A stretch of 64,000 nucleotides of DNA from Nemertoderma westbladi (Eukaryota > Animalia > Xenacoelomorpha), in the NCBI GenBank assembly GCA_032718475.1, contig JAUCBJ010006658.1, positions 1 through 64,000 of the forward strand, given 5' to 3'. The notes below the pieces were generated by a model, which ran no database searches, was not told the origin of the DNA, and saw nothing but the letters and a program-made list of their open reading frames with translations. Positions within the stretch are counted from its first letter, which is position 1. Each line of letters begins with the position of its first letter. Made by a program: the position numbers and the translations under genes. Shown here one piece after another: positions 476-39,897 of the stretch.

Positions 476-618
476 ATGCCGCCTCCGCTTTGCAGGATAT
501 TGCTTTCGCCGTGAATACCAGTGAGTCTGTGCACCCCATGACTTTCTTAAGACGCCTCTTAAAGGATATTGGCCTTGGAGATGCTGATAATTATGGGGAT
601 ATTATGGGGATATTTTAA
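476..618 (+). mobile_element. Degenerate RTE-clade LINE 3' fragment
   Basis: CGCCTCCGCTTTGCAGGA..TTGCTTTCGCCGTGA and CCCATGACTTTCTT..AAGGA match the RTE copy at 14615-14790, with an internal deletion. Confidence 0.7.
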
Positions 619-1882
619 GTATTTAATTTACCGCTGTACCATAGGAAGGCTGATCGGTAAATTGGATCAAATTAAAAAATTTATATTCATTCAATCATAT
701 TTTTTAGCATCTTTTTATTACAACAATCTTCGAATTAAATACATACAGTACCGCTCATGTGATAAATTAAAGTTCATATTTTAAGCTAATAACTGTAAAG
801 TTGTGTCATATATTCGATTAGAAATTAAATTATTAACTAATAATAAAATTTTAAATAATCACCTTTAGTGTCTTTGATGGATGGCGGCGTTTATTATTGG
901 TCCCGATACTGTTGAAAAGCATCACAAGATTGACCTCCATCTTCGCAATGTTCACGTATTGAATGTACAGTATGTACCCCATGCCGTACTACAGTATGTG
1001 CCCAATGCCGTTATAAAAATATACAGCAAATAATTGAGACGAAACCAAAATTAATTTAAATTACAGTTATACAATGCCCTATGTTACAGTATATTACACC
1101 GTTGTTCAGTACTACAGTATTGTATACTTTGCTCCTGAGTTCTGTATGAACCAATATACCACTATTTTACATCATACTTGGGCAGTTCCAGTATTGCCTG
1201 TAATTGGATGACTCATCACAGACACTCGTTCCCATAGCGTGGGAAAGTTTTTCGTTCAGGTAATTATTATTTTGAACGGAAAATGCTTAGCATTGAACTG
1301 CTATTGAACTACGGTTATGAAAAACATAGTTTGAACATTTTTTGAACGACAATTTTAAAAATATCTGAACTGAAATTGAACTGGTTAATTTTTATTGGAT
1401 AATAAACATTATTCAAACCTTCACAATAGCTAACGGAAATATAACTTGCCATTTACTAATCGTTACTTTTCAGTATCTGAACTCAAATTGAACTGGTTAA
1501 TGCTTGGGACGCCATTCAAACGTCCAAGAACATTAACGGAAACTTAACTGATACCATTAATGAACGTTACTTTTCAGTTGAAACACCAACACCATTTAGG
1601 CGTTATTATATGGAGACTAATTTAGAACGTTGAAATCTGGTACAGTATGTGCGACGTTTATGGAGTGGACATGTTCTCAACGTCCAAAAGCTGTGTGTGA
1701 ACGTTATGTGCTACCAATGTACCCATGTACCGATGTACCCAATGTGACCGGTACTACTGTACTATGGTACAGCTGTAGGCCGAAATACTGCAAGCTGTCG
1801 CAAACTATCTGACTGTACCGATCCGGTTTAGCCTTACATAACTATAGACCTTTTCTGGTGAATTACACAAACTGTGATAATA

Positions 1883-2923
1883 ATGGCGCCGACAAAGATA
1901 GATACAAATTCACTTAATGCGCGCATGGACCGGCTCGAAAACCTACTAACTAAAGTATCTAATAACCTAGAGAGAATTGACAACCAACTAAACCCGTCTG
2001 ACGGATCTCCTTCCTTAATACAGTCAATTACTCAACTGAAGCAAGACAATTCAACACTTCGAAAAGATAATGGTAATTTGATATCCGAAATTAACATTTT
2101 ATCTGCGAGAATCGATAAATCTGAACTTGCCAACGATTCCCTTGCCCAGTACGTACGACGTAACAACGTGCTATTCCACGGAATCGAGGAGGGAAATAAC
2201 AAATCCGATAGGTTAGCTATTGAAAGGATCGTAGAGTTTTGCGGGGTCGATATTAATGATATCGACGTATCTCACCGATTAGGTCAACCGAAAGCGGGTA
2301 AGCGTCGTCCAATAGTTGTACGGTTCCTACATCATGCTACTCGTTACGCAATCTTCTCCAGGAAATCCGATTTCAAGGACGGGTTCTATTCGACGGACCA
2401 CCTGACACCATTTCGCGCGGAACTCCTTCGAGAAGCAACGAAATTAAAGAAGGAGGGTAGAATATACGCCGCGTACTCGTCCAACGGAAACGTACAGATT
2501 CGCATTGAACGCGATTCTCTACCGAGAAACATCAACTCATTGCACGATATCAAAGATATTACTGCAAATACATCCACTCATAGTGTTACTCAACGACCGA
2601 ATAAGAAGTCTCTTCAAGGAGGTCCTAGTCGAGACAAACGAGTTACCAGGAGTTCATCTCTAGGGGGTGGCGGGCATTCCAACCGGGATGGTAAGAAGGT
2701 GAATAAGAACGCGCTCCCAGGTTCGTACCCGGCGGTTGATCCGACCCATCCATCTGTGGACGTCAAGCTCTCCTCCAATTCGCCATCGATTAATAACCTG
2801 GAAAGTGAAGACATCATTGTCGACGAAATCGACGCCGTTACCACCTTCCAACAACGCCAGAATAGTTCGCCAATTACTCCCTCTTTAAATCCTTATAACT
2901 CTCTGGACTGTGATGGAAATTAA
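1883..2923 (+). CDS. LINE ORF1 protein (coiled coil plus L1/Transposase_22-like RRM-CTD, disordered tail)
   Basis: ATG at 1883. N-terminal heptads, then QYVRRNNVLFHGIEE, HRLGQ..RPIVVRF, DHLTPFRAELL and NGNVQIR, typical of CR1/L2 ORF1. Confidence 0.88.
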   Translation: MAPTKIDTNSLNARMDRLENLLTKVSNNLERIDNQLNPSDGSPSLIQSITQLKQDNSTLRKDNGNLISEINILSARIDKSELANDSLAQYVRRNNVLFHGIEEGNNKSDRLAIERIVEFCGVDINDIDVSHRLGQPKAGKRRPIVVRFLHHATRYAIFSRKSDFKDGFYSTDHLTPFRAELLREATKLKKEGRIYAAYSSNGNVQIRIERDSLPRNINSLHDIKDITANTSTHSVTQRPNKKSLQGGPSRDKRVTRSSSLGGGGHSNRDGKKVNKNALPGSYPAVDPTHPSVDVKLSSNSPSINNLESEDIIVDEIDAVTTFQQRQNSSPITPSLNPYNSLDCDGN

Positions 2924-3163
2924 TACGCATAGGATCCTAGGAAACCCCTAATCTGGTCATCCAGAAAGGCAATTCAAATTATTATTAACTCTTGGAATAA
3001 TTTACAGAATTAATTTAACTGACTTACAATATCACTAGTGGCCCATATATGGTCAGGGCTTAACGGGATGTACTGATTTATTAATATTATATATTATAAC
3101 ATAGTGTATAATATATATCCATTGTATTAAGCGACAGTATGCAGTGTGCAGGCTGTCAGCTGA

Positions 3164-6100
3164 GGCATTATTGCAGGTGGGAAGATTGATACGAACTCTA
3201 ATTGTAGTAATTCATGTGCTCTCTGTTTTTCAGGATTCAAAAATAACGATAATACCATTTTATGCGCGGTGTGTAGAAACAGTTATCACCAGCAGTGTGG
3301 AACTTGCCTGACATATGGAGAAACCGCAGAGCTTGAACAGTCTCAGTTTTTTACGAGTCACTACTGCATTTTTTGTTTACAAGGGATTTTTCCTTTTAGC
3401 GATATTCCGTCTAACGACTATGATATTTTTGGAATTTCCGACGATTTATACTTGCTCAACGAAAATGCTGATAATCCTAGTTTTGCTACTATTGATCCGG
3501 ATAATAACATTCAAAATTTAGCGCGAAATAGCGAATACTATAATGATACTAAATTTAACAGTGAAATCGAGCGTATAGGTTCTCATCATAACTCTTTTTC
3601 TGTATATCACCTAAATTGTAGAAGCCTAAACAATAATCTTTCTTACACTGCTGAATTTTTAAGTACATTAGACGAAGATTTTGATGTTATCACTTTTACT
3701 GAAACATTAGTAGGTGCTAAAGACAATCACTGTAAATTAAAACTTGACAACTATGTAGGACCGCTACTATCAGACAGACCAGAGGGACGTTCCTCAGGTT
3801 CCGGTTGGGGTGTGGGAATTTACATTAAGGATACGCTAACCTTTACGGAACGAGACGACTTGACTGTGTCGGGAATTCATAATAAATGGATCCAAATTAA
3901 AAAATCCAACAATAAGTCCTTAGTGTTAGGTGTAATATACAGACCACCGTCTGTCAATTACAATAATTTTATTAATATTCTAGAACCCGCATTGGCGAAA
4001 GTATCTGATAAAAATATAGATATCGTCCTCACTGGTGACTTCAATGTTAACTTAAACAAAATGACATCAGAAAGTGCACGATACTTACAGATACTTTCAT
4101 CATACGGATTTTCCCAATTAATAAAACAACCCACTCGAATTGCACACGGTGCTAATTCAACGCTTGACCATATTATTACTAATATTACGAATGATTTTAC
4201 TACTGCCGGCGTTTTTTTATCAGAAATTGGCACAACAGACCACCTTGGAACATTTGCGTTATTTCATAATTATTCTGCTTTTTTCAAACAACCCAATACT
4301 AAAATGTGCTATGATTATAGCAAATTTAACTTAAATAGTTTTTTGCTCGACCTTTCATTACCACCTCTCGCAGCTTACCGATCCCATAATATACCGACAG
4401 ATAAAAAATTCGACACTTTTTACAATTCTTTTGATCAATTATGCCAAAAACACTTACCTAAAAAAATAATTACAAAAAGAAAAATTGCACGCAAACCATG
4501 GCTAACTCCTTTGCTAATTAAATCAATTTCTAAAAAAAATAAATTATATGAAAAATATATTAAATCACCGTGTTCTGAAACCCAAAAAGCCTATAAAACA
4601 TATCGTAATAATTTAACGACTGTAATCAGAGCCGCTGAAAAATCATTCTATAATCAAGAATTTTTAAAAAACAAAGGAAATATGCGCAAGACGTGGTCTG
4701 TAATTAACTCTGTATTACACAAAAATAAGAAATCCCTAAGCCCTACCAAAATTGCTTTCAGAACAGAAGTAGGGGCAAAAATAACGTCTGATCCCCATAA
4801 AATAGCATCTATTTTCAACGAACATTTTTCAACTATTGGACCAAAACTTGCCAGTACAATACCCCGATCTAACCGATGCCCTACCCGCCACATTAACCAT
4901 CGACACTCGAATTCATTTACTCTTATTGAAACTTCTGTAGCTGAAATTCACTACCTACTTTTACAAATAAATGAAAACAGCGCTACTAATGACAACTTTC
5001 CCAGTAAATTATTAAAAATTGCTGCTGAACACATTGCACCTCATCTAGCATATTTATTTAACCTATGTATCACAACAGGTCATTATCCAGTTTCTCTTAA
5101 ACAATCTAAAATAATCCCATGTTTTAAGGGGGGTGATCCACTAGATTCTAATAACTATAGGCCAATATCATTATTGCCAGTTTTTACAAAAATTCTAGAA
5201 CAGGTTATATACTCACAGCTTCAATCTTATTTAGATCGTTTCTGTATTTTGACTGCATCACAATTCGGTTTTCGAAAGAGGATTTCTACGGCTTCGGCTA
5301 TTCTAACGGTTACAGAAAAAATTAGATTTCACCTTGACTCAAAAGAATCTATCTGCGCAATTTATCTAGATTTAAAAAAAGCGTTTGATACGCTGAACCA
5401 CTCTACCTTATTTAAAAAATTAGAATCTTACGGAATTCGAGGCACCCCCCAGACTTTACTTAGGAGTTTTCTAACAGACCGTACACAATCAGTATCCTTA
5501 AATGGCGTAATCTCACCCACTCTTCCGGTAACCTGCGGAACGCCCCAGGGTTCAGTCCTTTCACCATTGCTGTTTCTTTTATATGTGAACGACTTACCGG
5601 ACGCATCCAAATTTTTGACAACTTTATTTGCCGACGATACGACGTTACTGGGCTTCAATTCAGACTTAAATTTATTGATTAACAACACAAACACTGAACT
5701 GGAAAAAATTTCGGACTGGCTTATAGACAACTCATTATCACTTAATCTTAGTAAAACAGAATACTCTATTTTTAGTAACAAAAACTGTCTTGGACTACCG
5801 AAAGTTAAAATTAAAGCCAATGAAATTACTAAGGTAAATAGCACTAAGTACTTAGGTATCTTTATCGATGACAATTTGAGCTGGAAAACGCATATAAATT
5901 ACATCCTTAAAAAAATATCTAGATCCTCCGGACTTTTTTATAAATTAAGACACTTTTTCCCAAGCCAAATTTTACGTACGCTGTATTATACATTAATTAA
6001 TCCTTACATCACTTATGGAATTCTTGCTTGGGGTACTGCCTGCAAATCAATAACACGTCCACTAAGAATTAAAGTTAATAAAATCTTGCGTTGCATAACA

Positions 6101-6457
6101 TTTAGTGACTACCGGGCTCACTCTGTGCCACTTTACAAATCACTAAATGTTTTGCCAATCGAATCTATATTTGAATTACAATTAGGCCAGTTAATGTACG
6201 ATATATCAAAATCTTCTAATAATCACCCTCTTTCAAATTTTTTTACTAAATTGTCTGATATTCATTTATATAACACCCGTTCATCTACTTTAGGCAAATT
6301 CGTAGTACCGTTAACCCGTCTCAATGTAGCACACCAAGGATTATCAGTCACTGGGCCAGTATTGTGGAACAGTCTCCCCTCTAGTCTAATTATTAGCAAA
6401 TCTAAATTTTCATTTAAACGTCAATTTAAAACATACCTATTTGAACACATGACGTAA
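3164..6457 (+). CDS. LINE ORF2: PHD finger, apurinic-like endonuclease and reverse transcriptase; start codon unresolved (no AUG before the endonuclease)
   Basis: Frame open from 3164. PHD CALC..CAVC-x4-H-x2-C..CIFC; APE motifs HLNCRSL, TET, GWGVGIYI, IYRPP, GDFN, LDHI, TDH; RT motifs YRPISLL, QFGFR, LDLKKAFD, GTPQGSVLSPLLF, FADDT, KYLGI. Confidence 0.95.
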   Translation, partial: GIIAGGKIDTNSNCSNSCALCFSGFKNNDNTILCAVCRNSYHQQCGTCLTYGETAELEQSQFFTSHYCIFCLQGIFPFSDIPSNDYDIFGISDDLYLLNENADNPSFATIDPDNNIQNLARNSEYYNDTKFNSEIERIGSHHNSFSVYHLNCRSLNNNLSYTAEFLSTLDEDFDVITFTETLVGAKDNHCKLKLDNYVGPLLSDRPEGRSSGSGWGVGIYIKDTLTFTERDDLTVSGIHNKWIQIKKSNNKSLVLGVIYRPPSVNYNNFINILEPALAKVSDKNIDIVLTGDFNVNLNKMTSESARYLQILSSYGFSQLIKQPTRIAHGANSTLDHIITNITNDFTTAGVFLSEIGTTDHLGTFALFHNYSAFFKQPNTKMCYDYSKFNLNSFLLDLSLPPLAAYRSHNIPTDKKFDTFYNSFDQLCQKHLPKKIITKRKIARKPWLTPLLIKSISKKNKLYEKYIKSPCSETQKAYKTYRNNLTTVIRAAEKSFYNQEFLKNKGNMRKTWSVINSVLHKNKKSLSPTKIAFRTEVGAKITSDPHKIASIFNEHFSTIGPKLASTIPRSNRCPTRHINHRHSNSFTLIETSVAEIHYLLLQINENSATNDNFPSKLLKIAAEHIAPHLAYLFNLCITTGHYPVSLKQSKIIPCFKGGDPLDSNNYRPISLLPVFTKILEQVIYSQLQSYLDRFCILTASQFGFRKRISTASAILTVTEKIRFHLDSKESICAIYLDLKKAFDTLNHSTLFKKLESYGIRGTPQTLLRSFLTDRTQSVSLNGVISPTLPVTCGTPQGSVLSPLLFLLYVNDLPDASKFLTTLFADDTTLLGFNSDLNLLINNTNTELEKISDWLIDNSLSLNLSKTEYSIFSNKNCLGLPKVKIKANEITKVNSTKYLGIFIDDNLSWKTHINYILKKISRSSGLFYKLRHFFPSQILRTLYYTLINPYITYGILAWGTACKSITRPLRIKVNKILRCITFSDYRAHSVPLYKSLNVLPIESIFELQLGQLMYDISKSSNNHPLSNFFTKLSDIHLYNTRSSTLGKFVVPLTRLNVAHQGLSVTGPVLWNSLPSSLIISKSKFSFKRQFKTYLFEHMT

Positions 6458-6701
6458 CGTCATAATAATACATTACACAATATCTCCCTATATGTCTGGC
6501 TCTATCTTATTATATTTCCTTCTCACATACACTGCGACTGGACTGTTTCTTCACTACAGTGTATTGTAAAATGGTTAATTAAATTATTATATTTCCTTGT
6601 GATCCTGATCAACAATTATTAAAGGTTTATAACAGTTCTTATTTTATCTTTTTTCAAATATATAATACTTAGTTACATATACAGTACATTTACCCTTGGT
6701 C

Positions 6702-6739
6702 GGTTGGCAGCCTCGACTAGCCTGGCTATTGCTGCAACC
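6702..6739 (+). other. LINE 3' UTR stem-loop (putative RT recognition signal)
   Basis: GGTTGGCAGC..CTCGAC-TAGCC-T-GGCTA..GCTGCAACC is self-complementary and lies ~110 nt before the tail, as in CR1/L2-group 3' ends. Confidence 0.65.
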
Positions 6740-7399
6740 CTTACCAACCCACCGCCTCGCACACTGCATACACATTTTCTTTTTATTCCATTACAACTAA
6801 ACTGTGCTTTGGTGATGGTTCTAATTATAACATTTTCCTATAAATAACAATAAATAAATAACAATACTAGGGGCAGCCTATATGTAGAAATATGACAGCC
6901 GGTAAAGTGAAACATTTTCTGTAGACAGACTCGGTTGCAACACATTCAGGCGGTCAGACACGCTGAGATTCACGACTTCTGAACTTTGGTAGGCAATAGG
7001 CATGGCCATGGAATACGCATGTAGTCAGTATGACACTCGGTAAAGTGAAACATTTTAGCTGTGTGCCGATCCCCATTCGAAATGCAGTGCATATATTTAG
7101 GCCCTATTAGGTATGGTGGTACCGTCAGACTGCAGACCGTCTAAGGGTTTATAGTGTATGCTACAGGTACAGTAGGTACCATTTCACAGTAGGTGCGATT
7201 TCTAGAATAGATATACAATTAAATTTACCTACTGTACGAGCTGGCGAGACATATTTTTATTTTCATTTTATTTACCGGTACCGGTTAAATATACGGTATC
7301 GACCGTGGTATCTACACTGAAGCAAAATTTAACACAGAAATAAAAGAACTAAGAAACTCCTCCCTCAAAATTTTCCATCAAAATTGTTGCAGCTTGCCA

Positions 7400-8898
7400 A
7401 AAAATCTACCCTATATAACAGACTTTCTTTTAACCCTGAATCAAAATTTTGATATTTTAACCTTTACAGAAACATTTTTATGTGAAGACGACCTACTTAG
7501 TAAAATAGAAATTCCGCGCTATAAATTACCTTTTTTTAGATAACCGATCATCTGGGGTTCTGAAACGCGGTGGGGCGGCAATATTTGTCAAAGATAGCCT
7601 TGAGGCTACTGAGCGTCCTGACTTGAAAATAAGCAGCCTTGAAAACTCTTGGGTACAAATTAAGAGACACCAAGTTCTAAACCACTAATTGTAGGTACAA
7701 TATCTACCGTCCTGAATCTACCACTGCTGCTGATTTTCTATCTCTTCTAGAATCTAATCTATCCCTACTAGCTTCTCGCAACTATGACGTAATTATTACT
7801 GGTAACGTAAACATTAATCTGCTAAAGAATGGACCAATCCGTAATTCATATATCGATCTGATTAACTCATACGGTTTTCTTCAACTAATCAATCACCCCA
7901 CTCATGTTTTTCACAGTGAACTTCCCAACTAAACATTACATTCGGAAACCCTAATTGACCACATTCTCACTGATATAACAACTTCTACCAGCACTGCCGG
8001 ACCCTTTAACTGCAAAATTGGAACTTCTGACCATCGGCCAACCTTCGCTATCTTCCAAAAAATTTCATGCCTCTTTAAATGTAACAAAAATATTACGACA
8101 TACGATTACTCAAAATTTTCGAAACATGGTTTTTTGAAAGACATCCAATCAGAACAATCATGGTCCTACAAGTCTCCTACTGTACGCAACTGCGAAAAGT
8201 TTGATACATTTTACAATAACCTTGAAAACATATGTTCCAAACATCTCACCAAAAAAACCATAACACCTTATAAAGAATTATCAAAACCATGGATGACTCA
8301 TCACTTACTCGATTGCACTATAACAAAAAATAAACTATATCACGCCAATATAAAAAATCCGACGTCAACACATTTCACCACATATAAAAATTATAGGAAC
8401 ACCCTCACAAGCATCCTACGCAATGCGGTAAAAAAACTATTACGCCCATCAATTTGAATTGAATTCAGGTAACACGAAAAAAACATGGCTCATTATAAAC
8501 TCCGCGCTCCATAGGTCTAAAAATTTAAAAACACCGACAAAGCTAACAACATGTTCCAACAATACCACGGTAACGTAACTGACCCTCATAAGATTGCAGA
8601 CACCCTCAACTCCCACTTTACCTCCGTAGGTCCTATTCTAGCTAATGAAGTACCTAAATCTTCCCGCTCACCTCTACGCTATATAAACTACACTCGCTCA
8701 AATTCTTTTACGTTAATAGAAACCACACCTGTAGAAGTCGAATACAACTTACTACACCTAGATCCAAAATCTTCTTCCAACGACAACATCCCCGTCAAAT
8801 TACTACTCTCAGTCGCTAAACCCTTATCACTACACCTCAGTTATCTAATTAATATTTCTATCAAACAAGGTTTTTCCCTAATGCACTTAATGTCGTAG
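7400..8898 (+). pseudogene. Degraded CR1/L2-group ORF2 fragment (endonuclease and linker), a relative of 3164-6457
   Basis: Frameshifted pieces FDILTFTET, GGAAIFVKD, YRP, TGNVNINL, IDHILT, SDH, KFDTFY, KPW, DPHKIA..HFTSVGP, SNSFTLIET, colinear with ORF2. Confidence 0.85.
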
Positions 8899-9544: not shown

Positions 9545-9864
9545 GCACTACTACTAGGATCGGCATGCTGCATTGCAGCTGCATTTTTAAGAATGCTGTG
9601 CCGGCTTGTCAACAAAATTGCACCGCCACAACTCCCTATCACCCATGACATTTGCTAGATCATCCGCATCTTTAAGGCCAGTGTCCTTTAAGATGCGTCT
9701 CAAGAAAGTCATGGGCTGTCCACCATGCTTATTCACTCCATGAGGCTGCCAAAGTACAAGATTATGCACTGGCTGGTCCTCACGGCGAAAGCAATGTCCT
9801 GCAAAGCGGAGGCGATTTTGTTCTAGTGTCAAGCTTGGGGGAACCAATGAGACACCTCCAATGC
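9545..9864 (-). mobile_element. 5'-truncated RTE-clade LINE 3' end with (TAG)n tail
   Basis: Encodes RLRFAGHCFRREDQPVHNLVLWQP; near-identical inverted copy of 14567-14885. Confidence 0.9.
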
Positions 9865-10949: not shown

Positions 10950-11490
10950 CAGGGGGGACAATAAATTGGGGGACAATTGTCCCCCAATTGCCAATGACAC
11001 TTACCCACAAATGATAAGATATTGTGGGGGGTAATTGCCCAGGGGGCAATTGTCCTCAGGGGGTAATGGTCCTCGGGGGCAATTGTCCAGGGGGCAATTG
11101 TCCGGGGGGCAATTGTCCTCAGGGCAATTATCCCTGGGGAACAATTGTCCTCCCTCACAGCCTCAGGGTGCAATTGTCTGCGGGGGCAATTTTCTGGGGG
11201 GCAATTGTAGGGGGAAATTGTCCACAGGGCTGCAGGGGGCAATCGTCCTCAAGGGATATTGCCCAGGGGGCAATTGTTCGGTGAGCAATGGTCCAAGGGG
11301 CAATTATCCAATTGGCAATTGTCCAAGGGGCAATTATCCAATTGGCAATTGTCCAAGGGGCAATTATCCAATTGGCAATTGTTCAAGGGGCAATTGTCCT
11401 CAGGGTTGCAGGGGGCAATCGTCCTCAGGGGCAATTGTTCTCAGGGCAAATATCCCCGGGGAGCAATTGTCCTCAGGGGGCAATTGTCTG
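10950..11490. repeat. GC-rich minisatellite of ~15-nt units (GGGGCAATTGTCC) with a 30-nt higher-order unit
   Basis: Dozens of GGGGCAATTG motifs; CAATTATCCAATTGGCAATTGTCCAAGGGG x3. The ORFs over it are repeat artefacts. Confidence 0.9.
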
Positions 11491-13544
11491 CTGCTGCTGC
11501 AATTTTAGGATCAGCTGTTATTTTGCAGTTTTGCGTCGATATGACCCTGCCTGCTGACAGAGTGTTGTATTTTAGTGCATTGAGAGTCCTACCCCCCTCC
11601 GCTCCCCCTATACAGCTATACACCATGCCCTGGAATATAGATAGTTTCTTTATTCAGGTTGAAGGTACCGGCGCAGTGGCGGTACTGGTACGGCTAATGT
11701 CGCGTTACGGCTAAATCTCCCAAAAAATAGTTGTAACGCGACAGTAGCCGTAACGCGACGACACCAAAGGTACCTGCCCCCCCCCCCCCCCCCCCCCCCA
11801 CCACCCGCCCAATATTTTTAGAAATCTTAATAATATTGCTTGAAATTTGAAACAGATATTTTTACCTCCCTTCCCTCCTCCTTAGTGGGTGAGGCATGAA
11901 AGGAATTTATTTTTGCTTTCATTCTTTAACTAGACAGCTAGAAGCGTTTAAAAAAAGGTATATCTCCGTCGATATTGCACCAGTTACAGCGCAGTTATTC
12001 TTCAACATCATACAGTCATAGTGATTTGTTGGTACTGTTAGAAAGCTGGCCATGCAAATGTGTAACACAATCAATCTGAATTTCGTTGAAATATAAGATT
12101 AACTACACACATCCATAGCTATCTTATCTCTGGTGCTGAGCTTTATTCCTCCTTAGTGCTACTAGCCCTCTAAATGATTAAGGTAATAATTGTTCCCAAT
12201 AGATAACGAGCCCATAGCTCTCCGGCCAAGGTAAACTTCTGTTAGTCAGTTAGTTACAGCCTTCGATAATGTATTAGTGACTTTGTGAACCTGGCTGCCT
12301 GGGTTGTCGTGGTTCAAGCCCATCAGCCATGGCCCGGCCAGCCCTGCACAATATACTCTATACTCTCTCTAGCTAGGCTGGCAATAAGGTACATTGGCCA
12401 GGCAACCGCCACCCAATCTCCACTCAGTCTTGTATGCTTGGTTACTACGATGGTTTGCTTTCTTGGTTGACTCCATGCTTTGCCTGTCTACTGTTTGAGT
12501 GCTCAGCTGTATGTGGTGGTTAATTATTATCTTTGCATAGCCGCACTGCAGCCTAGTGGTAATCGTAATGGCAATGGGATGAGTCACTGGCATTTTCAAT
12601 GGTCCTTACTACTTGTAGTCTTTCTTTAGGTGGACATGAGTATTGCTTGTGTTTTTATTCCCTATGGCCTAACCAATCCTTCCAGCCCTTTAAACCTTAC
12701 CCCATACCAAGCTCTAGTATGAAGGTAGATGTAGAATATAGATTTTTTTTACAGGAAGTGGTCACACAGACACAAGCAATAACCATTAAGCGCAATTTTT
12801 CCCCTGGAATTTTGACTTATGCAAGTATTGCAAGTATTCTGGGCGACTACGAGGCTGACCTCTCAGTATTTGTCGCCGTCGCCGTAACAACTAATTTAAT
12901 ACACAGTCGTATAAGCAGACAAATCACAATCACAAATCGTGTGAAATGCTATTCCGCCTCCCTATCCATCCGCAGCCTGGGAAACGGCCCCAAACAGCTG
13001 TTTAGTCTGCAAAGGGCCATCCCGCATTGTTAGCTGAAAAAACAAATAGTAAAAAAATGAACTAATATAAAATAACAATAGAAACAATAGAATAAATGGC
13101 CTGCAGCGAACTTTTTCTCAACGAATTTCAGATATTGTTACATATTTGGAATCCTTGCAAGGCAAGCTTTTTAATGATATGAAAAAAAATACGACTAATG
13201 TGAAGAATGTCCACGATACGGAGGAGGGTGCGATTTCGCAAAAGACACTTTTTTAAAACGCTTATAAAAAGAATTTAAAGGCAAAATCGAAAATTCCGGC
13301 TTCATGGGGTCATCGACGGTAAGTAGAACTAGTGGTGTTTCAAATTTCAAGCAATATGATAAAGATTTGTAGAAAAATCTGGGGGGGGGGGGAGGTCCGT
13401 GTCATCAGAAAATGACACTATATTACGGGTCATGGTATACTGTACGATCTTTCACATGAAACCAACGAAAACTGGTAAAAGTTTCCGAGTCGTCAACTCC
13501 ATTCACACTTTTACTGGGCACTATTTCAAACGAAAGAAGGGCAA

Positions 13545-14886
13545 CCTAACACTCTATGGTTCTTTTCGGGGAATCTCATTGATCTCGATTGCTACAAAGC
13601 TATACAATAGAATTATATTAAATCGCATCAGGGATCCCATTGAGAGACTGCTCCGTGGAAATCAGAAGGGGTTCCGTAAAGGTCGTGGGACCATGGAGCC
13701 CATTTTGGCACTTAGAAGGATAATTGAAGAGTTATCAAAAAAGAAAGACAGGCATCTGGCTGTTATCTTTGTTGACTTCTTCAAGGCCTTTGATTCAGTC
13801 TCTCGCTCACGTATGTTCAGCATACTTTCATTATATGGGATTCCTGATGAAATTATTGCAGCAATCAGATCAGTATACGATGGTTCGACAACATTTGTGT
13901 CTACTGTCACACTTGCACCATTCTTGTTCATAATTTTTGTTGACTATGTTCTACGCATGTCCTTAGATCATCATAATGATGATGGGGTGATGATAACTCC
14001 ACCTACTGGCTCCAGAAGTCGAGGAAATCCTGCCAAGTACCTAACTGATCTAGACTTTGCTGATGACTTAGGAGTACTCTCAGAATCACTAGAGGGAGCC
14101 CAACGGCTCCTCAGCTCATTAGAACATGCTGCTTCTAGTGTTGGTCTTTTTATTAACTCCAGAAAGACCACAATTTTGACAGTTAACTTTGAAAGTCCTC
14201 AGCAAGTCTCTGATCGGATGACCATAAGCTCAAAAGATGGTATGCTTGAGCATGTGGATGACTTCTGTTACCTGGGATCATGGATCCGGAAGTCAGGTGA
14301 GGACCTTCGAATACGTAAGGGAAAGGCATAGCGCATGGGCAGCCTTGAATAGGCTTTCCAGGATTTGGAAGTCACCGAGAATTAATCCCACACTTAAGGT
14401 CCGATTATTTAGAGCAGCAGTAGTTCCAGTACTCCTCTATGGGAGTCCATGCTGGGCTCTAACTGCTGAGGACACCAAATCTCTGGATGGCACATTCACA
14501 AGAATGCTACGCCGGGTTCATTGTGTCAAGTACAATGCACACATCTCCAACCAGACACTATATAACATTGGAGGTGTCTCATTGGTTCCCCCAAGCTTGA
14601 CACTAGAACAAAATCGCCTCCGCTTTGCAGGACATTGCTTTCGCCGTGAGGACCAGCCAGTGCATAATCTTGTACTTTGGCAGCCTCATGGAGTGAATAA
14701 GCATGGTGGACAGCCCATGACTTTCTTGAGACTCATCTTAAAGGACACTGGCCTTGAAAATGCGGATGATCTAGCAAATGTCATGGGTGATAGGGAGTTG
14801 TGGCTGTGCAATTTTGTCGATAAGCCGGCACAGCATTCTTAAAAATGCAGCTGCAATGCAGCATGCCGATCCTAGTAGTAGTAGTA
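13545..14886 (+). mobile_element. 5'-truncated RTE-clade LINE (RT to 3' end) with a frameshift and an in-frame deletion
   Basis: FRGISLISIATKLYNRIILNRI, QKGFR, FVDFFKAFDSV, LDFADD, YLGSWI; frameshift near 14330; the GVLQG motif is missing before TLAPFLF; tail TAGTAGTAGTAG. Confidence 0.92.
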
Positions 14887-25730: not shown

Positions 25731-28700
25731 TGCCACTATAATAGCTGTAATTTTCTAATCACCAGCTTTCAGAAAATATTTAGTTTAATGAGGTTCGGAA
25801 CAAAAATTTTTTTGGACAAAATTTGGCTAATATTTTGTAGAATGAACCACCATATATACATACAGTAGGCCTAACCAGATAGCACTATTGTAATAGTAGC
25901 GAATACCGTATCGGTACAAATTGTTACTCTCAGTCTGTCGTGGCACATTTACGTCTACGGGAAAGGCACTCATGGGCAACGTGGAAGAAAAAATTTTATT
26001 AACAAAAAATATTTTATTTTAATTTTGGCCGCACTGGGCCATGTTTTGGCCCAGTAAGGCCATATTTTTTTTATTATTTATGTATTATATTATAATTTCT
26101 TAGAGTAGTCTAGTCTATTTTTGAATGTGTTCAAACTTGGAGTACCAAGGTTATTCAGTACACGTGCATCGTGCATTAACAACACTGGCCGGTAAAAGAT
26201 TCCAAATGTTTACAACGCTGTCTACGAAGTTGTTGCATTTCCTTTGAGTCCTACAGTTCGATCTTTTGTACAGCACCAAGGAAGAACCTCATGTTGAGTA
26301 TTGGTGGAATTCGGAACGAAACTGGAAGAAATTACTTCGCTCAATATACAGTAGGCAAATATGGGATTGGTAGTGGCTAAATATGTAATTGCTCTTATAA
26401 TTTTGTTAATTTTCACTCGAATTGGATGAATATGTTTATCGTAGGTATTGCCCCATAGTATTATTCCGTATAATATGTAGGGTATGTAGTGTAGTATTTC
26501 TACTGTCGGCTGTCTACTGTCGGTGGTCTGCTGTCGGCGTAACGTTTACACCCCAAAGTTTGGTTTAATTTCATCAATATATGACGGAGTTATTGGTGAG
26601 CAAATATTAGACAGTGACAGACAACTCGTCACTTCGCTTACTTTGTGCCTCGTCCCACTTGGTTGGAATACTTAGTCGCACTTTTTTTATCACTAATTGT
26701 CCCGAAATTACTTTTAGATTAGGTGTAAGAGATCATTTCGACTATAAAATTGTGAAAGTTGAAAAAGTGAGGGAGACTTGACTTTAGGGGAAACTTGATT
26801 TTTTTTAATAACTCAAAAACTATTGTAAATTATTTAACAATACCACACAAAAATGTGTAAAATACATGTTGGCTACACCCGCGCAACAATGTTTTATTAC
26901 CTTTTGGTTATTTTTTGTTTTATTGTCAATAAACGTTTTCTGGGTTCAAAAGTAAATTTTTGCCCTTTACAACGAATGAAAAAGCGCATCCTTATTATAC
27001 TGTATGCTAATTGTAATTCACAACATGTGTTGACTAATTATTGCACTATCCTGCCATATATTGTTTTCCAGTTTTGGTTCAGCCGTTTTGAAAGTATATA
27101 AATTAATATAAAAAAAGCCCAAGTGGGTGTGAGGGAGACACCCACGAAGAGAACCATTACACCAGAGCGCTCCAACTAGGTGATTGGCACTTACACAGAC
27201 CAACCTATCAATGGAATGTGAATACAATGGAGTGGCTAGGGAGAGGGAGAGAGAGAGGCCTTGATAAACCCAGCCAAGCCAAGCCAACCAACTCTTCCTT
27301 CCCTAGTGTAGTGTAGTTAATAGCCCGCCAACTGGGTGATTGACAGGTTAAACAAGATGCCACTTCGTCAGAAAGCGGCACACATCAATAGAATTACAGG
27401 AAAACAATTAATATATGCCTGGATTGAAAACTATACAAGATATTCATTAATAGAAAGTACCTTCCCGCGTTAAATTTTAATGCGGTTTTAATGAACTATT
27501 ATTTATTCAGTTCTTGTTGGGAGAACCATGTGAACGACCACCTAAATTTGTATAAAATTTTGGATAATAATTTAACAATCGCATTTTTTGATGTAATTAT
27601 TACACTTCTTCTGCATTTTTGAACGAATTTATAAGTATGCGAGGTGGGGTTCAAGTCTACCACCCTAGTTGTCAAGCCTTGACGCTGTTTCGAAAATACG
27701 AATAATTGGTTTAATTAAAAAAGTTTAAGAGTTGAAAATCTCAAACTCTCACATAATGATACAGTAGCAATCATAAATGTAATGTGAAAAAGTTAAAACG
27801 GCATTGAAAAATTTATTTATCTGTTCTTTAGAGCGATTATAACTTTTGGGGATCAAGTCTCCTTCACTCACTCTACAGGTCCCGTAGTTTACTTTATCAA
27901 TGTCCCATACTTTACCACACAACCATGCTGTACAAAATTAGCAATTTGTCTGATATTTAAATTTTTATTTAAGCTTAAGGGGGGGGGGGGAGCACATCCA
28001 AATTGAACTTCACATTTTTGTGTCTCTTGACCATAAAATTGGGTGAAATTTATTGTTTGTGCTACTAAACATCGTCTGGACTGTGTGTGAATAACCAAAC
28101 CAAAATTTTTTTAAACTGGCCCCAAAATGTATTTTTGTGCTATTCAAAGTGCCCTTTGCGTCAAGGGCTATTTCTCCACCAATACTTGTTGAAATTTTGA
28201 ATATAGCGTCAGAAGAACCCTAAGTTTTGCCTCAAATGCTCCGGAGCCTTTTTAGAACAAAAAGGCCACAAAAAAGGCCTTTTTGGTATAAAAAGGCTCC
28301 AGGGCATTTTCAACCAAATTTGTTCGGAAGAAGTATGGAGAAGGGTAATCTTAACAAGTGTACCAAATTTCAAGTCATTTCAGTTAAAATTGGCGGAGAA
28401 ATAGCCCTTTTCATGAAAAAACGTCATTCTGATGAAATGTTTCATGCTTGCTAAACAGATGAGTTTGAGAAAAGATATGAGAAAACTGCTTGCAGATTTG
28501 AAATCTCCATTAAATTCGGCACATGATAGAATAAAAAAACTTTTTTTGTCAATTTCCAAAATAGGAGGGTGCTACCTACCTACCTACCCCCCCCCCCCCC
28601 CCCCCTAAAAAAACATCTTTATCATAAACATCAACTCAACACCGTACCTGCGCACAATTCGATAAACTTTAGAATTGATCATAATTACGACTCTGTAATT

Positions 28701-29089: not shown

Positions 29090-29307
29090 ATTAACATGGG
29101 TGTTTAGGTAGCCTTGCTGATGGAATTCTTTGACAATAACCGCACTTAAGTTTGATATCTTTATGTACAGAGTCGACATTTTAGTTAGATTTTAGCAACA
29201 AATGATTTTCTCAATTGAAGCAGTTGTACTTAATATCTTTATGAAAGTAGTTCACATGGGTGTTTAGACTCCTTTGCGGGCTGAATTCTTTATTACAATA
29301 ACCGCAC
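29090..29307 (-). pseudogene. Out-of-frame, decayed extra zinc-finger repeats downstream of the ZF stop codon
   Basis: Continues KCGYCNKEFSPQRSLNTHVNYFHKDIKYNCF.. and KCGYCQRI.. after a 4-nt AAAG duplication near 29325. Confidence 0.8.
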
Positions 29308-30642
29308 TTATGTTTGATATCTTTCTTTATGTATAGAGTCGACATGTCGTTTTAGTTTGGCTTTTGTAGCAAATGATTTTCCACAATCAGAACAGTTGTA
29401 CTTGATATCTTTATGAAAGTAGTTCACATGGGTGTATAGATTCCCTTGCTGACTGAATTCTTTATGACAATAACCGCATTTATATTTGATATCTTTATGT
29501 CGTATAGAGTGTATGGAGTCGACATGTCGTTTTAGTTCGGCTTTTGTAGCAAATGATTTTCCACAATCGAAGCAGTTGTACTTGATGATACCTTTGTGGA
29601 CAAAGTTAACGTGGGTGTTTAGACTCCTTTGTAGGCTGAATTCTTTATTACAATAACCGCATTTATATTTGATACCTTTATGTATAGAGTCGACATGTCG
29701 TTTTAGTACGTATTTTCTAGCAAATGATTTTCCACAATCAAAACAGTTGTACTTGATATCTTTATGAAAGTAGTTCACATGGGTGTATAGATTCCCTTGC
29801 TGACTGAATTCTTTATGACAATAACCGCACTTATATTTGATACCTGTATGTATAGAGTCGACATGTCGTATTAGTTCGACTTTTGTACTAAATGATTTTC
29901 CACAATCGAGACAGTTGTACTTGATATCTTTATGAAAGTAGTTCACATGGGTGTTCAGATTAATTTGCACGCAGAATTCTTTATTACAATAACTGCAATT
30001 ATATTTTATACCTTTATGGATAGAGTTAACATGCTTCTTTACACCAAGCTTACATTTAAACTGTTTTTCACAATAATCGCATTTATACTTATTCTTTACG
30101 TCTTTATGAACGGATTCTATATGTCTCTCTAAATCTCCTTTGTTATTAAATAATTCATTGCAATGCAAACAGGAACTGGTGTCTGAAGAAGATACCAACT
30201 CCCCAACAGTTTCATTAGAACTACCGGACTCTGTTGTTGCACAACTGATTGTCGCTTCTGTACCTTCAGTTTCAATAGGCCTACCATAAGAACACTCTGG
30301 GCTGTCGTTTTCCCGTTTTTCAACAATAAAAGAATCTCCAGATGGTTCATAAGAAATATCTTCGTCATCTAGTAAAGGGACAACATCTACTCTACCGAAC
30401 AAATTGTTGTGCTCTTCGATGGGAGATGATCCGTGAACGCAGTTCTCTTGTTTAACATCAAGAGAATAGGGGGTAGAGTCTGCTGGTTCTCTCTTTATAA
30501 TTATAAAGTCTGTTGGTTTTTTCTTTATAATTATAAAGTCTGTTGGTTCTTTGTTTAGGATTATATAGTCGGTTGGTTCGCTCTTTATAATTATACCGGC
30601 ACCAGAAGATTTCTCTTTCAATAAATTAGTATGTTGATCCAT
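29308..30642 (-). CDS. Intronless tandem C2H2 zinc-finger protein (444 aa, 10 fingers)
   Basis: ATG start; ten C-x2-C-x12-H-x4-H fingers at a ~29-aa period with HK(G/D)IKY linkers; acidic N-terminus with IIIKxEP repeats. Confidence 0.9.
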   Translation of the reverse strand: MDQHTNLLKEKSSGAGIIIKSEPTDYIILNKEPTDFIIIKKKPTDFIIIKREPADSTPYSLDVKQENCVHGSSPIEEHNNLFGRVDVVPLLDDEDISYEPSGDSFIVEKRENDSPECSYGRPIETEGTEATISCATTESGSSNETVGELVSSSDTSSCLHCNELFNNKGDLERHIESVHKDVKNKYKCDYCEKQFKCKLGVKKHVNSIHKGIKYNCSYCNKEFCVQINLNTHVNYFHKDIKYNCLDCGKSFSTKVELIRHVDSIHTGIKYKCGYCHKEFSQQGNLYTHVNYFHKDIKYNCFDCGKSFARKYVLKRHVDSIHKGIKYKCGYCNKEFSLQRSLNTHVNFVHKGIIKYNCFDCGKSFATKAELKRHVDSIHSIRHKDIKYKCGYCHKEFSQQGNLYTHVNYFHKDIKYNCSDCGKSFATKAKLKRHVDSIHKERYQT

Positions 30643-34004: not shown

Positions 34005-35218
34005 AGGACCATTCTAGGGCCAATATTGTTTGTAATTTATGTAAATTCCATAGCAAATATACCGGATATACACTTGATACACAGTACGCAGATGATACAC
34101 TTATATACTGTACAAATAAGGATCCTCTAAAAGCATCACAAACCTTAGAAAAACACATACAGTCCCAGGAGATTGTCTTAAAAATTAATCCGAATACGAT
34201 AATTAACCAATCCAAATCAATTAAATATTTAGGAATACTAATAGACAACAGAATGGAATGGAGGGAACACATCAACGATATAAAACATAAAATGACACAA
34301 GCAATCTCCGGACTACGACAGATAGAAAGGACAGTTACCACTCAAATCTAAACTTAATATATACAAGGCGACAGTGCTACCATATCATAACTACTGCTGC
34401 GAGGTCCTAATTTCAATACAAAACAGTTACGGTGCAAAGGGAATACTTTACGGGTTAGAAAAAATACAAAATTACGGCTTAAGGGTAGTGTATAGCAAGA
34501 AAAACAAGGACATGACAGGAACCGAATTACGAACGAAAGCAAAACTTCCTACACTGACAGCTCTACGAGAATACTTTGTATTAAAATTTTACTACAAATA
34601 TATATTTAATCTAAGTACACCATTTAAGAAACTACAACTACCATTTCTTAATACTATAAGAACAAACGCATACTTGATAAATCCCAGAACACATAATATT
34701 AAAATACCTACTACTAGGAACAACTACGGATTTAAAAGTTTAACTGTCAGTGCTACAAAAATCTGGAACGCATCTCTTATTACTCTAAAACAAATACGAA
34801 AACTAAAAACTTACATGGATAGCATTAAAAATCACTATTATACAATATATGACCGTGACTCCATAACATAGCAACAAGTAACTTACACAACTTAGAATAT
34901 ACTGTGATAAAGTAAACAATTAATGTGTGTACGTATGTACGTGGGTGGTGTGGTATGTGTGAAATAATGGTGTTTGTAATTGTAAGTATGGGGTGTTGTG
35001 TGTCTACGCGCCAATGTATTGGGTATGTATGTACAACATCAATATGACTCCAGTGGATACACAGTAATGTAATTAGTGTAGGTCAAGGATTTGTCAGCCA
35101 TACATGACGCTTATTCCCATAAATTATCAGCCGGGGCCACCCTCCATGCTGCCTTCAATTATTTTACATATTTGAAGTTTTGGGAATAAAATAATTTATT
35201 ATTATTTTATTATTATTA
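34005..35218 (+). mobile_element. 5'-truncated, decayed L2/CR1-group LINE (RT C-terminus, 3' UTR, (ATT)n tail)
   Basis: ILGPILFVIYVN, YADDTLIY, IKYLGILID..W..HI, SATKIWNA; AATAAA followed by ATT repeats at 35186-35218. Confidence 0.85.
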
Positions 35219-38800: not shown

Positions 38801-39897
38801 TCATCCACCGTAGGTTTGCCACTATCATAGCTGTAATTTTCTAATCACCAGCTTTCAGAAAATATTTAGTTTAATGAGGTTTGGAACAAAAGATTTTTTT
38901 GACAAAATTTGGCTAATATTTTGTAGAATGAACCACCATATATAGGCCTAACCAGATAGCAGTATTGTAATAGTAGCGAATACCGTATCGGTACATATTG
39001 TTACTCTCAGTCTGTCGTGGCACCCATGGGCCATGGTAACATTTACGTCTACGGGAAAGGCACTCATGGGCAACGTGGAAGAAAAAATTGTATTAACAAA
39101 AAATTTTTTATTTTAATTTTGGCCGCACTGGGCCATGGTTTGGCCCAGTAAGGCCATATTTTTTTTATTATTTATGTATTATATTATAATTTCTTAGAGT
39201 AGTCTAGTCTATTTTTGAATGTGTTCAAACTTGGAGTACCAAGGTTATTACAGTACACGTGCATCGTGCATTAACAACACTGGCCGGTAAAAGATTCCAA
39301 ATGTTTACAACGCTGTTTGCGAAGTTGTTGCATTTCCTTTGAGTCATGCAGTTCGATCTTTTGTACAGCACCAAGGAAGAACCTCATGTTGAGTATTGGT
39401 GGAGTTCGGAACGAAACTGGAAGAAATTACTTCGCTCAATATACAGTAGGCAAATATGAGATTGGTAGTGGCTAAATGTAATTGCTCTTATAATTTTGTT
39501 AATTTTCACTCGAATTGGATGAATATGTTTATCGTAGGTATTGCCCCATAGTATTATTCCGTATAATATGTAGGGTATGTAGTGTAGTCTATCTACTGTC
39601 GGTTGCCTAATGTGGGTTGTCGGCTCTCTACTGTCGTTGGGATGCTCTCGGCGTAACGTTTACACCCCAAAGTTTGGTTTAATTTCATCAATATACAGTA
39701 TGACGGAGTTATTGGCGATCAAATATTAGACAGTGACAGACAACTCGTCACTTCGCTTACTTTGTGCCTCGTCCCACTTGGTTGGAATACTTAGTCGCAC
39801 ATTTTTATCACTAATTGTCCCGAAATTACTTTTAGATTAGGTGTAAGAGATCATTTCGACTATAAAATTGTGAAAGTTGAAAAAGTGAAGGAGACTT
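35682..39897 (+). repeat. Composite duplicated block, copy B (pre-insertion state)
   Basis: Matches 19785-26779 but lacks the Helentron-like and solo-LTR insertions; ends at an RTE fragment. Confidence 0.92.

What the first reader, a model, noticed from the sequence alone, without database searches (positions are those of the whole stretch)
2931..6771. Long-range complementarity between the LINE inter-ORF spacer and its own 3' UTR, covering the AUG next to ORF2
Seen: 3137-3156 GTATGCAGTGTGC-AGGCTGT is the reverse complement of 6751-6771 ACCGCCTCGCACACTGCATAC (13 bp perfect, 19 pairs with one bulge and one mismatch), 3.6 kb away and just 3' of the terminal stem-loop. Weaker complementary blocks: 3068-3075/6682-6689 with 3085-3095/6657-6667, ~3010-3040/6552-6585 (core TTACAATA/TATTGTAA) and ~2931-2945/6592-6606. 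The strongest helix would sequester the AUG at 3139. Inference: an RNA bridge looping out the whole of ORF2 could license ORF2 translation only on RNAs with an intact 3' end, or switch between translation and reverse transcription, by analogy with 5'-3' bridges of RNA viruses. I do not know of this being described for CR1/L2-group LINEs.
Basis: partly seen in the sequence, partly recalled or inferred. Interest (0 to 1): 0.75.

Follow-up and report, generated by a model that had tools for sequence, protein, structure and literature searches.

The report
Retrotransposon tail pairs with ORF2 start
In this intact animal jumping gene and in many distant relatives, the start region of the copying-enzyme gene is complementary to the element's own tail about 3.6 kb away, a predicted RNA bridge that likely controls how often that enzyme is made and would tie its production to the tail it must bind.

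Summary
The main match is real: 3137-3156 pairs with 6751-6771 (-29.6 kcal/mol), and the best spacer-by-3'UTR duplex is reached by 0-1 of 2000 shuffles. The bridge appears in the predicted fold of the whole 4-kb RNA with a further 6-bp helix, and it displaces a terminal hairpin. AUG 3139 is out of frame; ORF2 has no AUG, and its likely start is ACG 3191.

The bridge recurs. 15 of 62 other CR1-group LINEs show it at P<0.01, against 0 of 28 LINEs of other clades. In one 15-family clade the arms keep their position and complementarity while the sequence turns over (0 of 100,000 permutations). It is patchy among this element's closer relatives (4 of 18 clear).

No copy of this family and no RNA data were available, so pairing and function are untested. 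Best reading: a switch that damps ORF2 initiation and frees the tail when opened. No paper describing it in LINEs was found in nine searches. The scan noted a similar bridge in a plant LINE (e1-10620961).

The parts
1883..2923 (+). ORF1, 346 aa: N-terminal coiled coil plus a predicted L1-ORF1-like (type II) RRM/CTD region
   Evidence: no Pfam hit above cut-off; Atlas look-alikes at 0.93 include a PF25298 Baculo_FP_2nd cluster (the FP25K-L1 ORF1 kinship is recalled); PDB search gave only coiled-coil chance hits
2924..3163 (+). Inter-ORF spacer. AT-rich (30% GC over 2924-3129), ending in a G-rich island 3130-3182 (38% G against 15%)
3137..3156 (+). 5' arm of the main long-range helix (core 3137-3153)
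3139..3189 (+). 16-codon uORF, out of frame with ORF2. Its AUG lies inside the 5' arm and its TGA ends one base before ACG 3191
3151..3163 (+). Alternative predicted helix (13 pairs, 3 G-U) with 6700-6712, the 5' strand of terminal stem-loop 1; competes with the end of the main helix
3176..3181 (+). Third predicted arm, 6 pairs with 6748-6753, stacked on the main helix in the 4-kb fold
3191..3193 (+). In-frame ACG eight codons before the first Cys pair of the PHD finger; likely ORF2 start (near-cognate, or a mutated ATG)
   Evidence: several PHD-bearing homologues start with Met about 2-10 residues before the same Cys pair; inference
3164..6457 (+). ORF2, 1097 aa stop to stop: PHD-type finger, APE endonuclease, reverse transcriptase; no in-frame ATG before residue 300
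3254..3298 (+). Weaker nested helices with 6529-6575 in the 4-kb fold
   Evidence: best duplex of this region reached by 58 of 2000 and 20 of 2000 shuffles, so weak
6458..6865 (+). 3' UTR with an AATAA-repeat tail (about 6841-6865)
6696..6747 (+). Terminal stem-loop 1, predicted ORF2p-binding element; a like hairpin is predicted in relatives such as L003, L011, L090, L094 and L150
6749..6818 (+). Predicted hairpin 2. Its 5' strand is the bridge's 3' arm, so hairpin 2 and the bridge exclude each other; a second hairpin closing at AATAAA is also predicted in L004, L087, L090, L094 and L150
6748..6771 (+). 3' arm of the bridge, followed by a pyrimidine tract

Best explanation
The ORF2 start region of this LINE is complementary to its own 3' tail and is predicted to pair with it across 3.6 kb, likely acting as a switch that keeps ORF2 initiation low and would free the tail's fold when a ribosome opens it. 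Shown: the complementarity, its excess over shuffles, and its recurrence at the ORF2 start in several CR1-group lineages. Predicted: a closed state (3137-3153 with 6754-6771, plus 3176-3181 with 6748-6753) that buries the decoy AUG 3139 and stands 10 nt before ACG 3191, and an open state (local spacer hairpin plus terminal hairpin 2) only about 9 kcal/mol higher. Inferred: ribosomes that re-initiate after ORF1 or the uORF only occasionally melt the bridge and start ORF2 at ACG 3191; melting lets the 3' end refold on the RNA that is making ORF2p, which would favour binding in cis.
For: This element. Main helix -29.6; best spacer x UTR duplex reached by 0-1 of 2000 shuffles. Net binding after unfolding local structure is -20.9 kcal/mol, reached by 2 of 300 shuffles and 0 of 38 other tiles. 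The bridge is in the fold of 2880-6866, and the best fold without it is 8.6 kcal/mol worse and restores hairpin 2.

Relatives. 15 of 62 CR1-group elements against 0 of 28 other-clade LINEs at P<0.01 (Fisher 0.004). In a 15-family, mostly single-ORF clade, 12 of 15 have P<0.01 and all 15 have P<0.06. The cognate pairing is the best of its column in 13 of 15 and of its row in 8 of 15, with 0 of 100,000 permutations as good; four sister pairs at 68-72% amino-acid identity share only short chance-level nucleotide matches in the arm regions. L127, L233 and L234 bury an in-frame AUG just before the endonuclease in 12-14 consecutive pairs with the 5' strand of their terminal stem, with an A-U to U-A swap in L234; five relatives with other loop sequences lack the match. 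In this element's own group L070, L110, L113 and L116 have P of 0.0011 or less.

The 5' arm always lies at the ORF2 start (about -225 to +50) while the 3' arm moves about in the UTR, and single-ORF elements have it, so it is tied to ORF2 initiation rather than to ORF1. L2-clade ORF2p binds the cognate 3' stem-loop (PMC4176376, abstract). Low ORF2p output is argued to be advantageous (PMC3894237, parts 1-2 of 3 read).
Against: No RNA, probing or reporter data, and no second copy of this family. The direction (repress or enhance) is inferred from geometry only. The opposite strand of this element pairs as well or better (-35.5, 0 of 2000), so the data do not show that the sense RNA is the selected molecule here; in the 15-family clade the sense excess is borderline after background correction (Wilcoxon 0.055). 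12 of the 15 positives of the fixed test belong to one clade; outside it only 3 of 47 pass (each P of 0.0002 or less). 14 of 18 members of this element's group are not clear positives (L031, L117 and L011 borderline). A first test on 34 elements looked flat. In many relatives the 3' arm lies just behind the stop codon, not at the terminal stem, so tail unmasking cannot be the general rule. Long-range minimum-energy predictions are unreliable (noted in PMC7969010, passage).
Confidence: 0.45

Rival explanations
1. The bridge is real but stimulates ORF2: it would bring the 3' end (poly(A)-bound factors, or 40S subunits recycled from the ORF2 stop) next to the ORF2 start, so that only RNAs with an intact tail make the enzyme. 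This is the first reader's licensing idea, like viral 3' translation enhancers and tombusvirus readthrough.
For: In the 15-family clade and in L113, L116 and L117 the helix ends 11-178 nt upstream of the AUG, and its partner starts 2-155 nt after the stop, a geometry suited to closed-loop recycling; U- or pyrimidine-rich tracts often flank the outer end. Here the main helix ends 35 nt before ACG 3191 and masks an out-of-frame AUG. A 3.5-kb bridge is required for polymerase readthrough in a tombusvirus (PMC3234231, abstract).
Against: In L127, L233, L234 and L070 the AUG itself lies inside the helix. Helices of -25 to -45 kcal/mol in a scanned leader usually impede scanning (general knowledge, recalled).
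Confidence: 0.25
2. In this particular element the match is chance, or a decaying inverted duplication, whatever holds for other families.
For: A 13-mer somewhere in the element is expected (108 of 200 shuffles). The scan reads very many windows. Both strands pair alike. Most close relatives lack a clear bridge (14 of 18). G-rich against C-rich patches pair easily (at least 12 of 526 window tiles under the loose model).
Against: The location matches that of the relatives' bridges. Local-composition shuffles give 0-2 per 300-2000. Two adjacent terminal segments both find their best partner in the same 50-nt island. The method gives 0 of 28 on other-clade LINEs.
Confidence: 0.13
3. The pairing matters for reverse transcription or RNP assembly (compaction, template handling, or pairing of the cDNA strand) rather than for translation.
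For: The opposite strand pairs equally well here; 10 of 65 elements pass P<0.01 on the opposite strand. Ty1 CYC5/CYC3 is a cyclisation pairing among the cis elements for retromobility (PMC7969010, passages).
Against: The 5' arm tracks the ORF2 start codon, not the element's 5' end, in two-ORF and one-ORF elements alike. G-U pairs are frequent on the sense strand in the 15-family clade (mean -31.6 sense; opposite strand weaker in 12 of 15).
Confidence: 0.1
4. The fold-back shields the RNA from nonsense-mediated decay by bringing the poly(A) end close to the ORF1 or uORF stop codon.
For: Folding the poly(A) tail back near a stop codon suppresses NMD in human cells (PMC2689704, abstract). Here the bridge would shorten a 3.9-kb distance to about 300 nt.
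Against: The most regular bridges are in a clade where 14 of 15 have no upstream ORF over 90 aa, and there the 3' arm is next to the ORF2 stop and usually well short of the tail.
Confidence: 0.07

Closest known systems
Tombusvirus PRTE-DRTE long-range interaction (PMC3234231; abstract and section list seen)
   Same: About 3.5-kb pairing between the start region of the polymerase frame and a 3'-terminal replication element with mutually exclusive folds; proposed there to cull truncated genomes and give cis preference.
   Different: There it drives stop-codon readthrough in an RNA virus and is shown experimentally. Here ORF1 and ORF2 are separated by a 240-nt spacer with several stops in the ORF2 frame, so readthrough from ORF1 is excluded, and nothing is tested.
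Ty1 CYC5/CYC3 cyclisation (PMC7969010, passages) and HIV-1 RNA circularisation (PMC1976439, search listing only)
   Same: Long-range 5'-3' pairing in a retroelement RNA.
   Different: LTR elements; end-to-end pairing for replication, not anchored at an internal ORF start.
SART1 ORF2 translational coupling (UAAUG plus a downstream RNA structure; passages in PMC3708506 and PMC3894237)
   Same: An RNA structure at the ORF2 start of a LINE affects initiation; a stop lies close to the probable start (uORF TGA one base before ACG).
   Different: The SART1 structure is local and ORF1 overlaps ORF2. Here the partner is 3.6 kb away.
L2 lineage subgroup 5 of Metcalfe and Casane (PMC4120745, passages); 'Crack-like' label recalled
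   Same: L1-like ORF1 with a PHD finger at the start of ORF2; APE-RT without a C-terminal CCHC.
   Different: No Repbase reference sequences were on hand, so clade placement is by architecture only; no such RNA bridge appears in the passages seen.
3' tail stem-loop of zebrafish and eel L2 elements (PMC4176376, abstract)
   Same: A stem-loop near the 3' end, predicted here at 6696-6747.
   Different: Binding is shown there and only inferred here; the abstract reports no long-range partner.

Membership tests
CR1-group (L2/Crack/Daphne lineage) LINE | APE endonuclease plus RT in ORF2, no C-terminal CCHC or RNase H | tested here: met
   Pfam Exo_endo_phos and RVT_1 above cut-off; ORF2 ends about 200 aa after RT with no further hit
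CR1-group (L2/Crack/Daphne lineage) LINE | RT phylogeny with named reference elements | not testable with these tools
   Trees hold only unnamed loci; the element groups with 18 loci (support 0.79) apart from the CCHC-bearing LINEs
L2 subgroup 5 (type IIB layout) | Transposase_22-like ORF1, and PHD at the start of ORF2 | tested here: inconclusive
   PHD-type Cys/His pattern present, weak RING hit; ORF1 has no Pfam or PDB Tnp22 hit, only an Atlas lead
Stringent-type LINE | 3' stem-loop recognised by the cognate ORF2p | tested here: inconclusive
   Stem-loop predicted and similar in relatives, but the fold z-score of the last 200 nt is only -0.43; binding not testable
Viral-type long-distance RNA-RNA interaction | Complementarity beyond chance at a fixed functional site | tested here: met
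Viral-type long-distance RNA-RNA interaction | Partner specificity or covariation across relatives | tested here: inconclusive
   Met in other lineages (15x15 matrix; L127/L233/L234); not testable in this family for lack of copies
Viral-type long-distance RNA-RNA interaction | Physical pairing and function shown by compensatory mutants | not testable with these tools
   needs bench work
Tombusvirus-type readthrough signal | Upstream ORF in frame with the polymerase across a single stop | tested here: not met
   ORF1 ends at 2923, and the ORF2 frame has several stops between 3074 and 3163
2A-bearing single-ORF CR1-group elements (PMC3708506) | NPGP-type 2A motif near the ORF2 N-terminus and no ORF1 | tested here: not met
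   Absent in this element; present in 12 of the 15 families of the most regular bridge clade

The most novel reading that the evidence does not exclude
CR1-group LINEs have repeatedly evolved, and keep re-matching, a bridge between the ORF2 start and their own 3' UTR that works as a translation-sensing switch. It sets ORF2 output and couples it to an intact, correctly folded tail, giving a sequence-encoded mechanism for both ORF2 initiation control and cis preference in one of the most widespread animal retrotransposon groups.
Probability: 0.35. Interest if true: 0.9.

Novelty: new variant of a known kind. Interest (0 to 1): 0.78.

Why it matters
How LINEs with long spacers initiate and limit ORF2 translation is stated as an open question (PMC3894237), and why ORF2p prefers its own RNA in stringent elements is only partly explained by tail binding. 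A start-to-tail bridge that keeps its complementarity through complete sequence turnover gives a concrete cis element that can be broken and restored in reporter and retrotransposition assays. It would extend virus-type long-distance RNA control to non-LTR elements. It could also matter for LINE-based gene insertion tools, where UTRs are trimmed or swapped. Because the arms share no sequence between families, alignment-based searches would have missed it.

Tried and rejected
No whole genome is held, no RNA holder was listed (no evidence either way), and the window holds no second copy of this family, so there was no within-family covariation or splice test. Rfam gave no match in 1500-7500. The ORF1 homologue search found none at 1e-10. 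Viral collections gave no usable relatives.

The first cognate versus non-cognate test on 34 elements showed only a few outliers; the signal became clear with 65 elements. The direct-repeat control passed P<0.01 in 3 of 65.

In the second pass over 20 further broken or short-flanked elements (wider window, chosen after seeing data), 5 had P<0.01. I dropped L177 (a 120-nt inverted repeat, probably flanking DNA) and L105 (hit at the window edge, 413 nt after the stop) and kept L070, L110 and L113. 20 of 48 other-clade contigs were dropped for short ORFs or flanks before the 0 of 28 count.

The constrained energy printed (-728.8) is an artefact of the constraint and was replaced. The maximum-likelihood tree did not finish; FastTree was used.

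Splicing of ORF1 to ORF2 (donor-like sites after 2297 and 2690, acceptor-like site at 3176, all phase 1) remains untested. A +1 frameshift from the uORF at a CUG-AGG-C site (likeness to the Ty1 site is recalled) is possible but unlikely.
Full report
The element. Window 1883-6865 is an intact two-ORF LINE: ORF1 1883-2923, a 240-nt spacer, ORF2 3164-6457 (1097 aa stop to stop), and a 3' UTR ending in AATAA repeats. ORF2 carries an N-terminal PHD-type finger, an APE endonuclease and an RT. This layout matches L2 subgroup 5 of PMC4120745 (passages), but ORF1's Tnp22 kinship rests on an Atlas lead only and no named references were available. The nearest database proteins are 30-35% identical. No genome, second copy or sequencing run was available.

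The observation. The main helix (3137-3156 x 6751-6771) scores -29.6 kcal/mol in a local duplex model that allows only 1-nt bulges and 1x1 mismatches; no shuffle of 2000 reached it against the distal UTR. For the whole spacer against the whole UTR, the best duplex (-31.5; 3130-3163 onto the stem-loop, core 3151-3163 x 6700-6712) was reached by 1 and 0 of 2000. Against this: a perfect 13-mer somewhere in the element occurs in 108 of 200 shuffles, and with looser loops 8 of 2000 shuffles and at least 12 of 526 window tiles did as well. Within the element the island is the best partner of both halves of the terminal region on either strand. Net binding is -20.9 kcal/mol (2 of 300 shuffles, 0 of 38 other tiles). 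The fold of 2880-6866 contains 3137-3149 x 6759-6771, 3150-3153 x 6754-6757 and 3176-3181 x 6748-6753. Penalising these costs 8.6 kcal/mol and restores a local spacer hairpin and terminal hairpin 2, so two states are predicted.

The start codon. AUG 3139 begins a 16-codon uORF in another frame; its TGA (3187-3189) lies one base before an in-frame ACG at 3191. Several PHD-bearing homologues start with Met a few residues before the finger, which is where this ACG sits, so I infer it is the start, either natural or mutated from ATG. AUG-less or broken ORF2 5' ends are common in the set (15 of 65 marked 'stop', this element included). In-phase splice-like sites exist but could not be tested.

Relatives. 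I gathered LINE loci from metagenomes and from eukaryotic contigs lying in prokaryote bins. A first test on 34 elements was flat apart from a few outliers. On 65 non-redundant intact elements, a fixed zone around the ORF2 start against the first 500 nt after the stop gave P<0.01 in 14 (this one included), and was the best zone of its element in 16; the direct-repeat control gave 3. With a wider zone, 15 of 62 CR1-group elements other than this one passed, against 0 of 28 LINEs of other clades from the same bins (Fisher 0.004, not corrected for kinship).

Twelve of those 15 lie in one well-supported clade of 15 families with long ORFs, mostly a 2A-like motif (12 of 15) and no ORF1 (14 of 15; compare PMC3708506, passages). 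There the 5' arm lies 39-225 nt before the AUG and the 3' arm 2-177 nt after the stop. Cognate pairs average -31.6 against -16.5 for non-cognate, are the column minimum in 13 of 15 and the row minimum in 8 of 15, and 0 of 100,000 permutations match. Sister families at 68-72% protein identity have unrelated arm sequences at similar coordinates.

Other lineages. L127, L233 and L234 bury an in-frame AUG shortly before the endonuclease in the 5' strand of their terminal stem-loop, with one A-U to U-A swap inside coding sequence, while five relatives with other loops lack it. L127 and L233 were missed by the fixed zone because their first Met lies further upstream. L020 has a -42.5 helix at the start of ORF2. 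In this element's own group of 18, L070, L110, L113 and L116 are clear (P of 0.0011 or less, three of them from the post-hoc second pass), L031, L117 and L011 are borderline, and the rest are negative. The L117 arms are essentially invariant among nine loci, some of them the same contig, which is uninformative. The trait is thus recurrent but patchy, and most loci come from few hosts and from what are probably collapsed repeat contigs.

Mechanism. Shown: complementarity above chance at the ORF2 start in several lineages, with partner specificity. Predicted: pairing, and exclusion of a terminal hairpin here and of the terminal stem in the L127 group. Inferred: function. Because the 5' arm follows the ORF2 start whether or not ORF1 exists, ORF2 initiation is the likely target. 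Because the AUG is buried in several cases and a stable helix precedes it in the others, damping is somewhat more likely than stimulation (0.45 against 0.25). Opening by an initiating ribosome would let the tail refold on the RNA being translated, and L2 ORF2p binds its cognate tail stem-loop (PMC4176376, abstract). The strand under selection is not settled: here the opposite strand pairs as well (-35.5), and in the 15-family clade the sense excess is borderline (P 0.055). Chance for this copy (0.13), a role in reverse transcription or packaging (0.10) and NMD evasion (0.07; PMC2689704, abstract) remain.

Known or new. Long-distance pairing is known in plant RNA viruses (PMC3234231, abstract) and in Ty1 (PMC7969010, passages). 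Ten literature searches were run; nine were aimed at LINE translation, classification or long-range pairing and one at Ty1 cyclisation. None listed a paper describing an ORF2-start to 3' UTR bridge in LINEs. Term look-ups in PMC13343379, PMC11203168, PMC4120745 and PMC3708506, and two of three parts of PMC3894237, showed none. The library lacks most subscription papers and Repbase reports, and no supplements were read, so prior mention cannot be excluded. The scan has an unchecked note of a similar bridge in a plant LINE (e1-10620961); it is a lead, not support.

Verdict. The main observation is confirmed and the side blocks are not. New variant of a known kind; interest 0.78.

Noticed in passing
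window 2297-2298, 2690-2691 and 3176-3177: Two donor-like sites in ORF1 and an acceptor-like site just inside ORF2 are all phase 1, so splicing would fuse ORF1 to the AUG-less ORF2. L008 also shows a donor-like site after ORF1 and a pyrimidine tract with AG just before its ORF2, whose PHD finger begins ahead of the first Met.
   Followed up: partly
window 7313-8871: Second, broken LINE of the same group (about 40% amino-acid identity to ORF2), same strand, just downstream; further LINE fragments near 13513-13944, 26381-26482, 34202-34348 and 39372-39575.
   Followed up: no
window 480-608 and 9642-9814: Inverted repeat pair (47 nt at 89% and 77 nt at 78%) about 9 kb apart, enclosing both LINEs; possibly the ends or two copies of a short repeat.
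   Followed up: no
window 29094-30033: 84/168-nt tandem array on the minus strand that looks like a C2H2 zinc-finger exon (28-codon period; label inferred).
   Followed up: no
L057, L236, L247, L250, L254, L255, L285-L292, L311: A 15-family clade of mostly single-ORF, 2A-bearing CR1-group LINEs in which nearly every family pairs its leader with the sequence just behind the stop codon; the strongest case of the bridge and the best test system.
   Followed up: yes
L127 (about 70 nt before the endonuclease), L233, L234: In-frame AUG region complementary to the 5' strand of the terminal stem-loop, with a compensatory change that alters an amino acid.
   Followed up: yes
L070, about 100 nt up to and over the ORF2 AUG: G-rich spacer tract predicted to form a duplex of about 80 nt (-75.8) with a C-rich part of the 3' UTR.
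   Followed up: partly
window 11027-11488: 15-nt minisatellite of about 31 copies with internal self-complementarity, between poly-G and poly-C runs.
   Followed up: no
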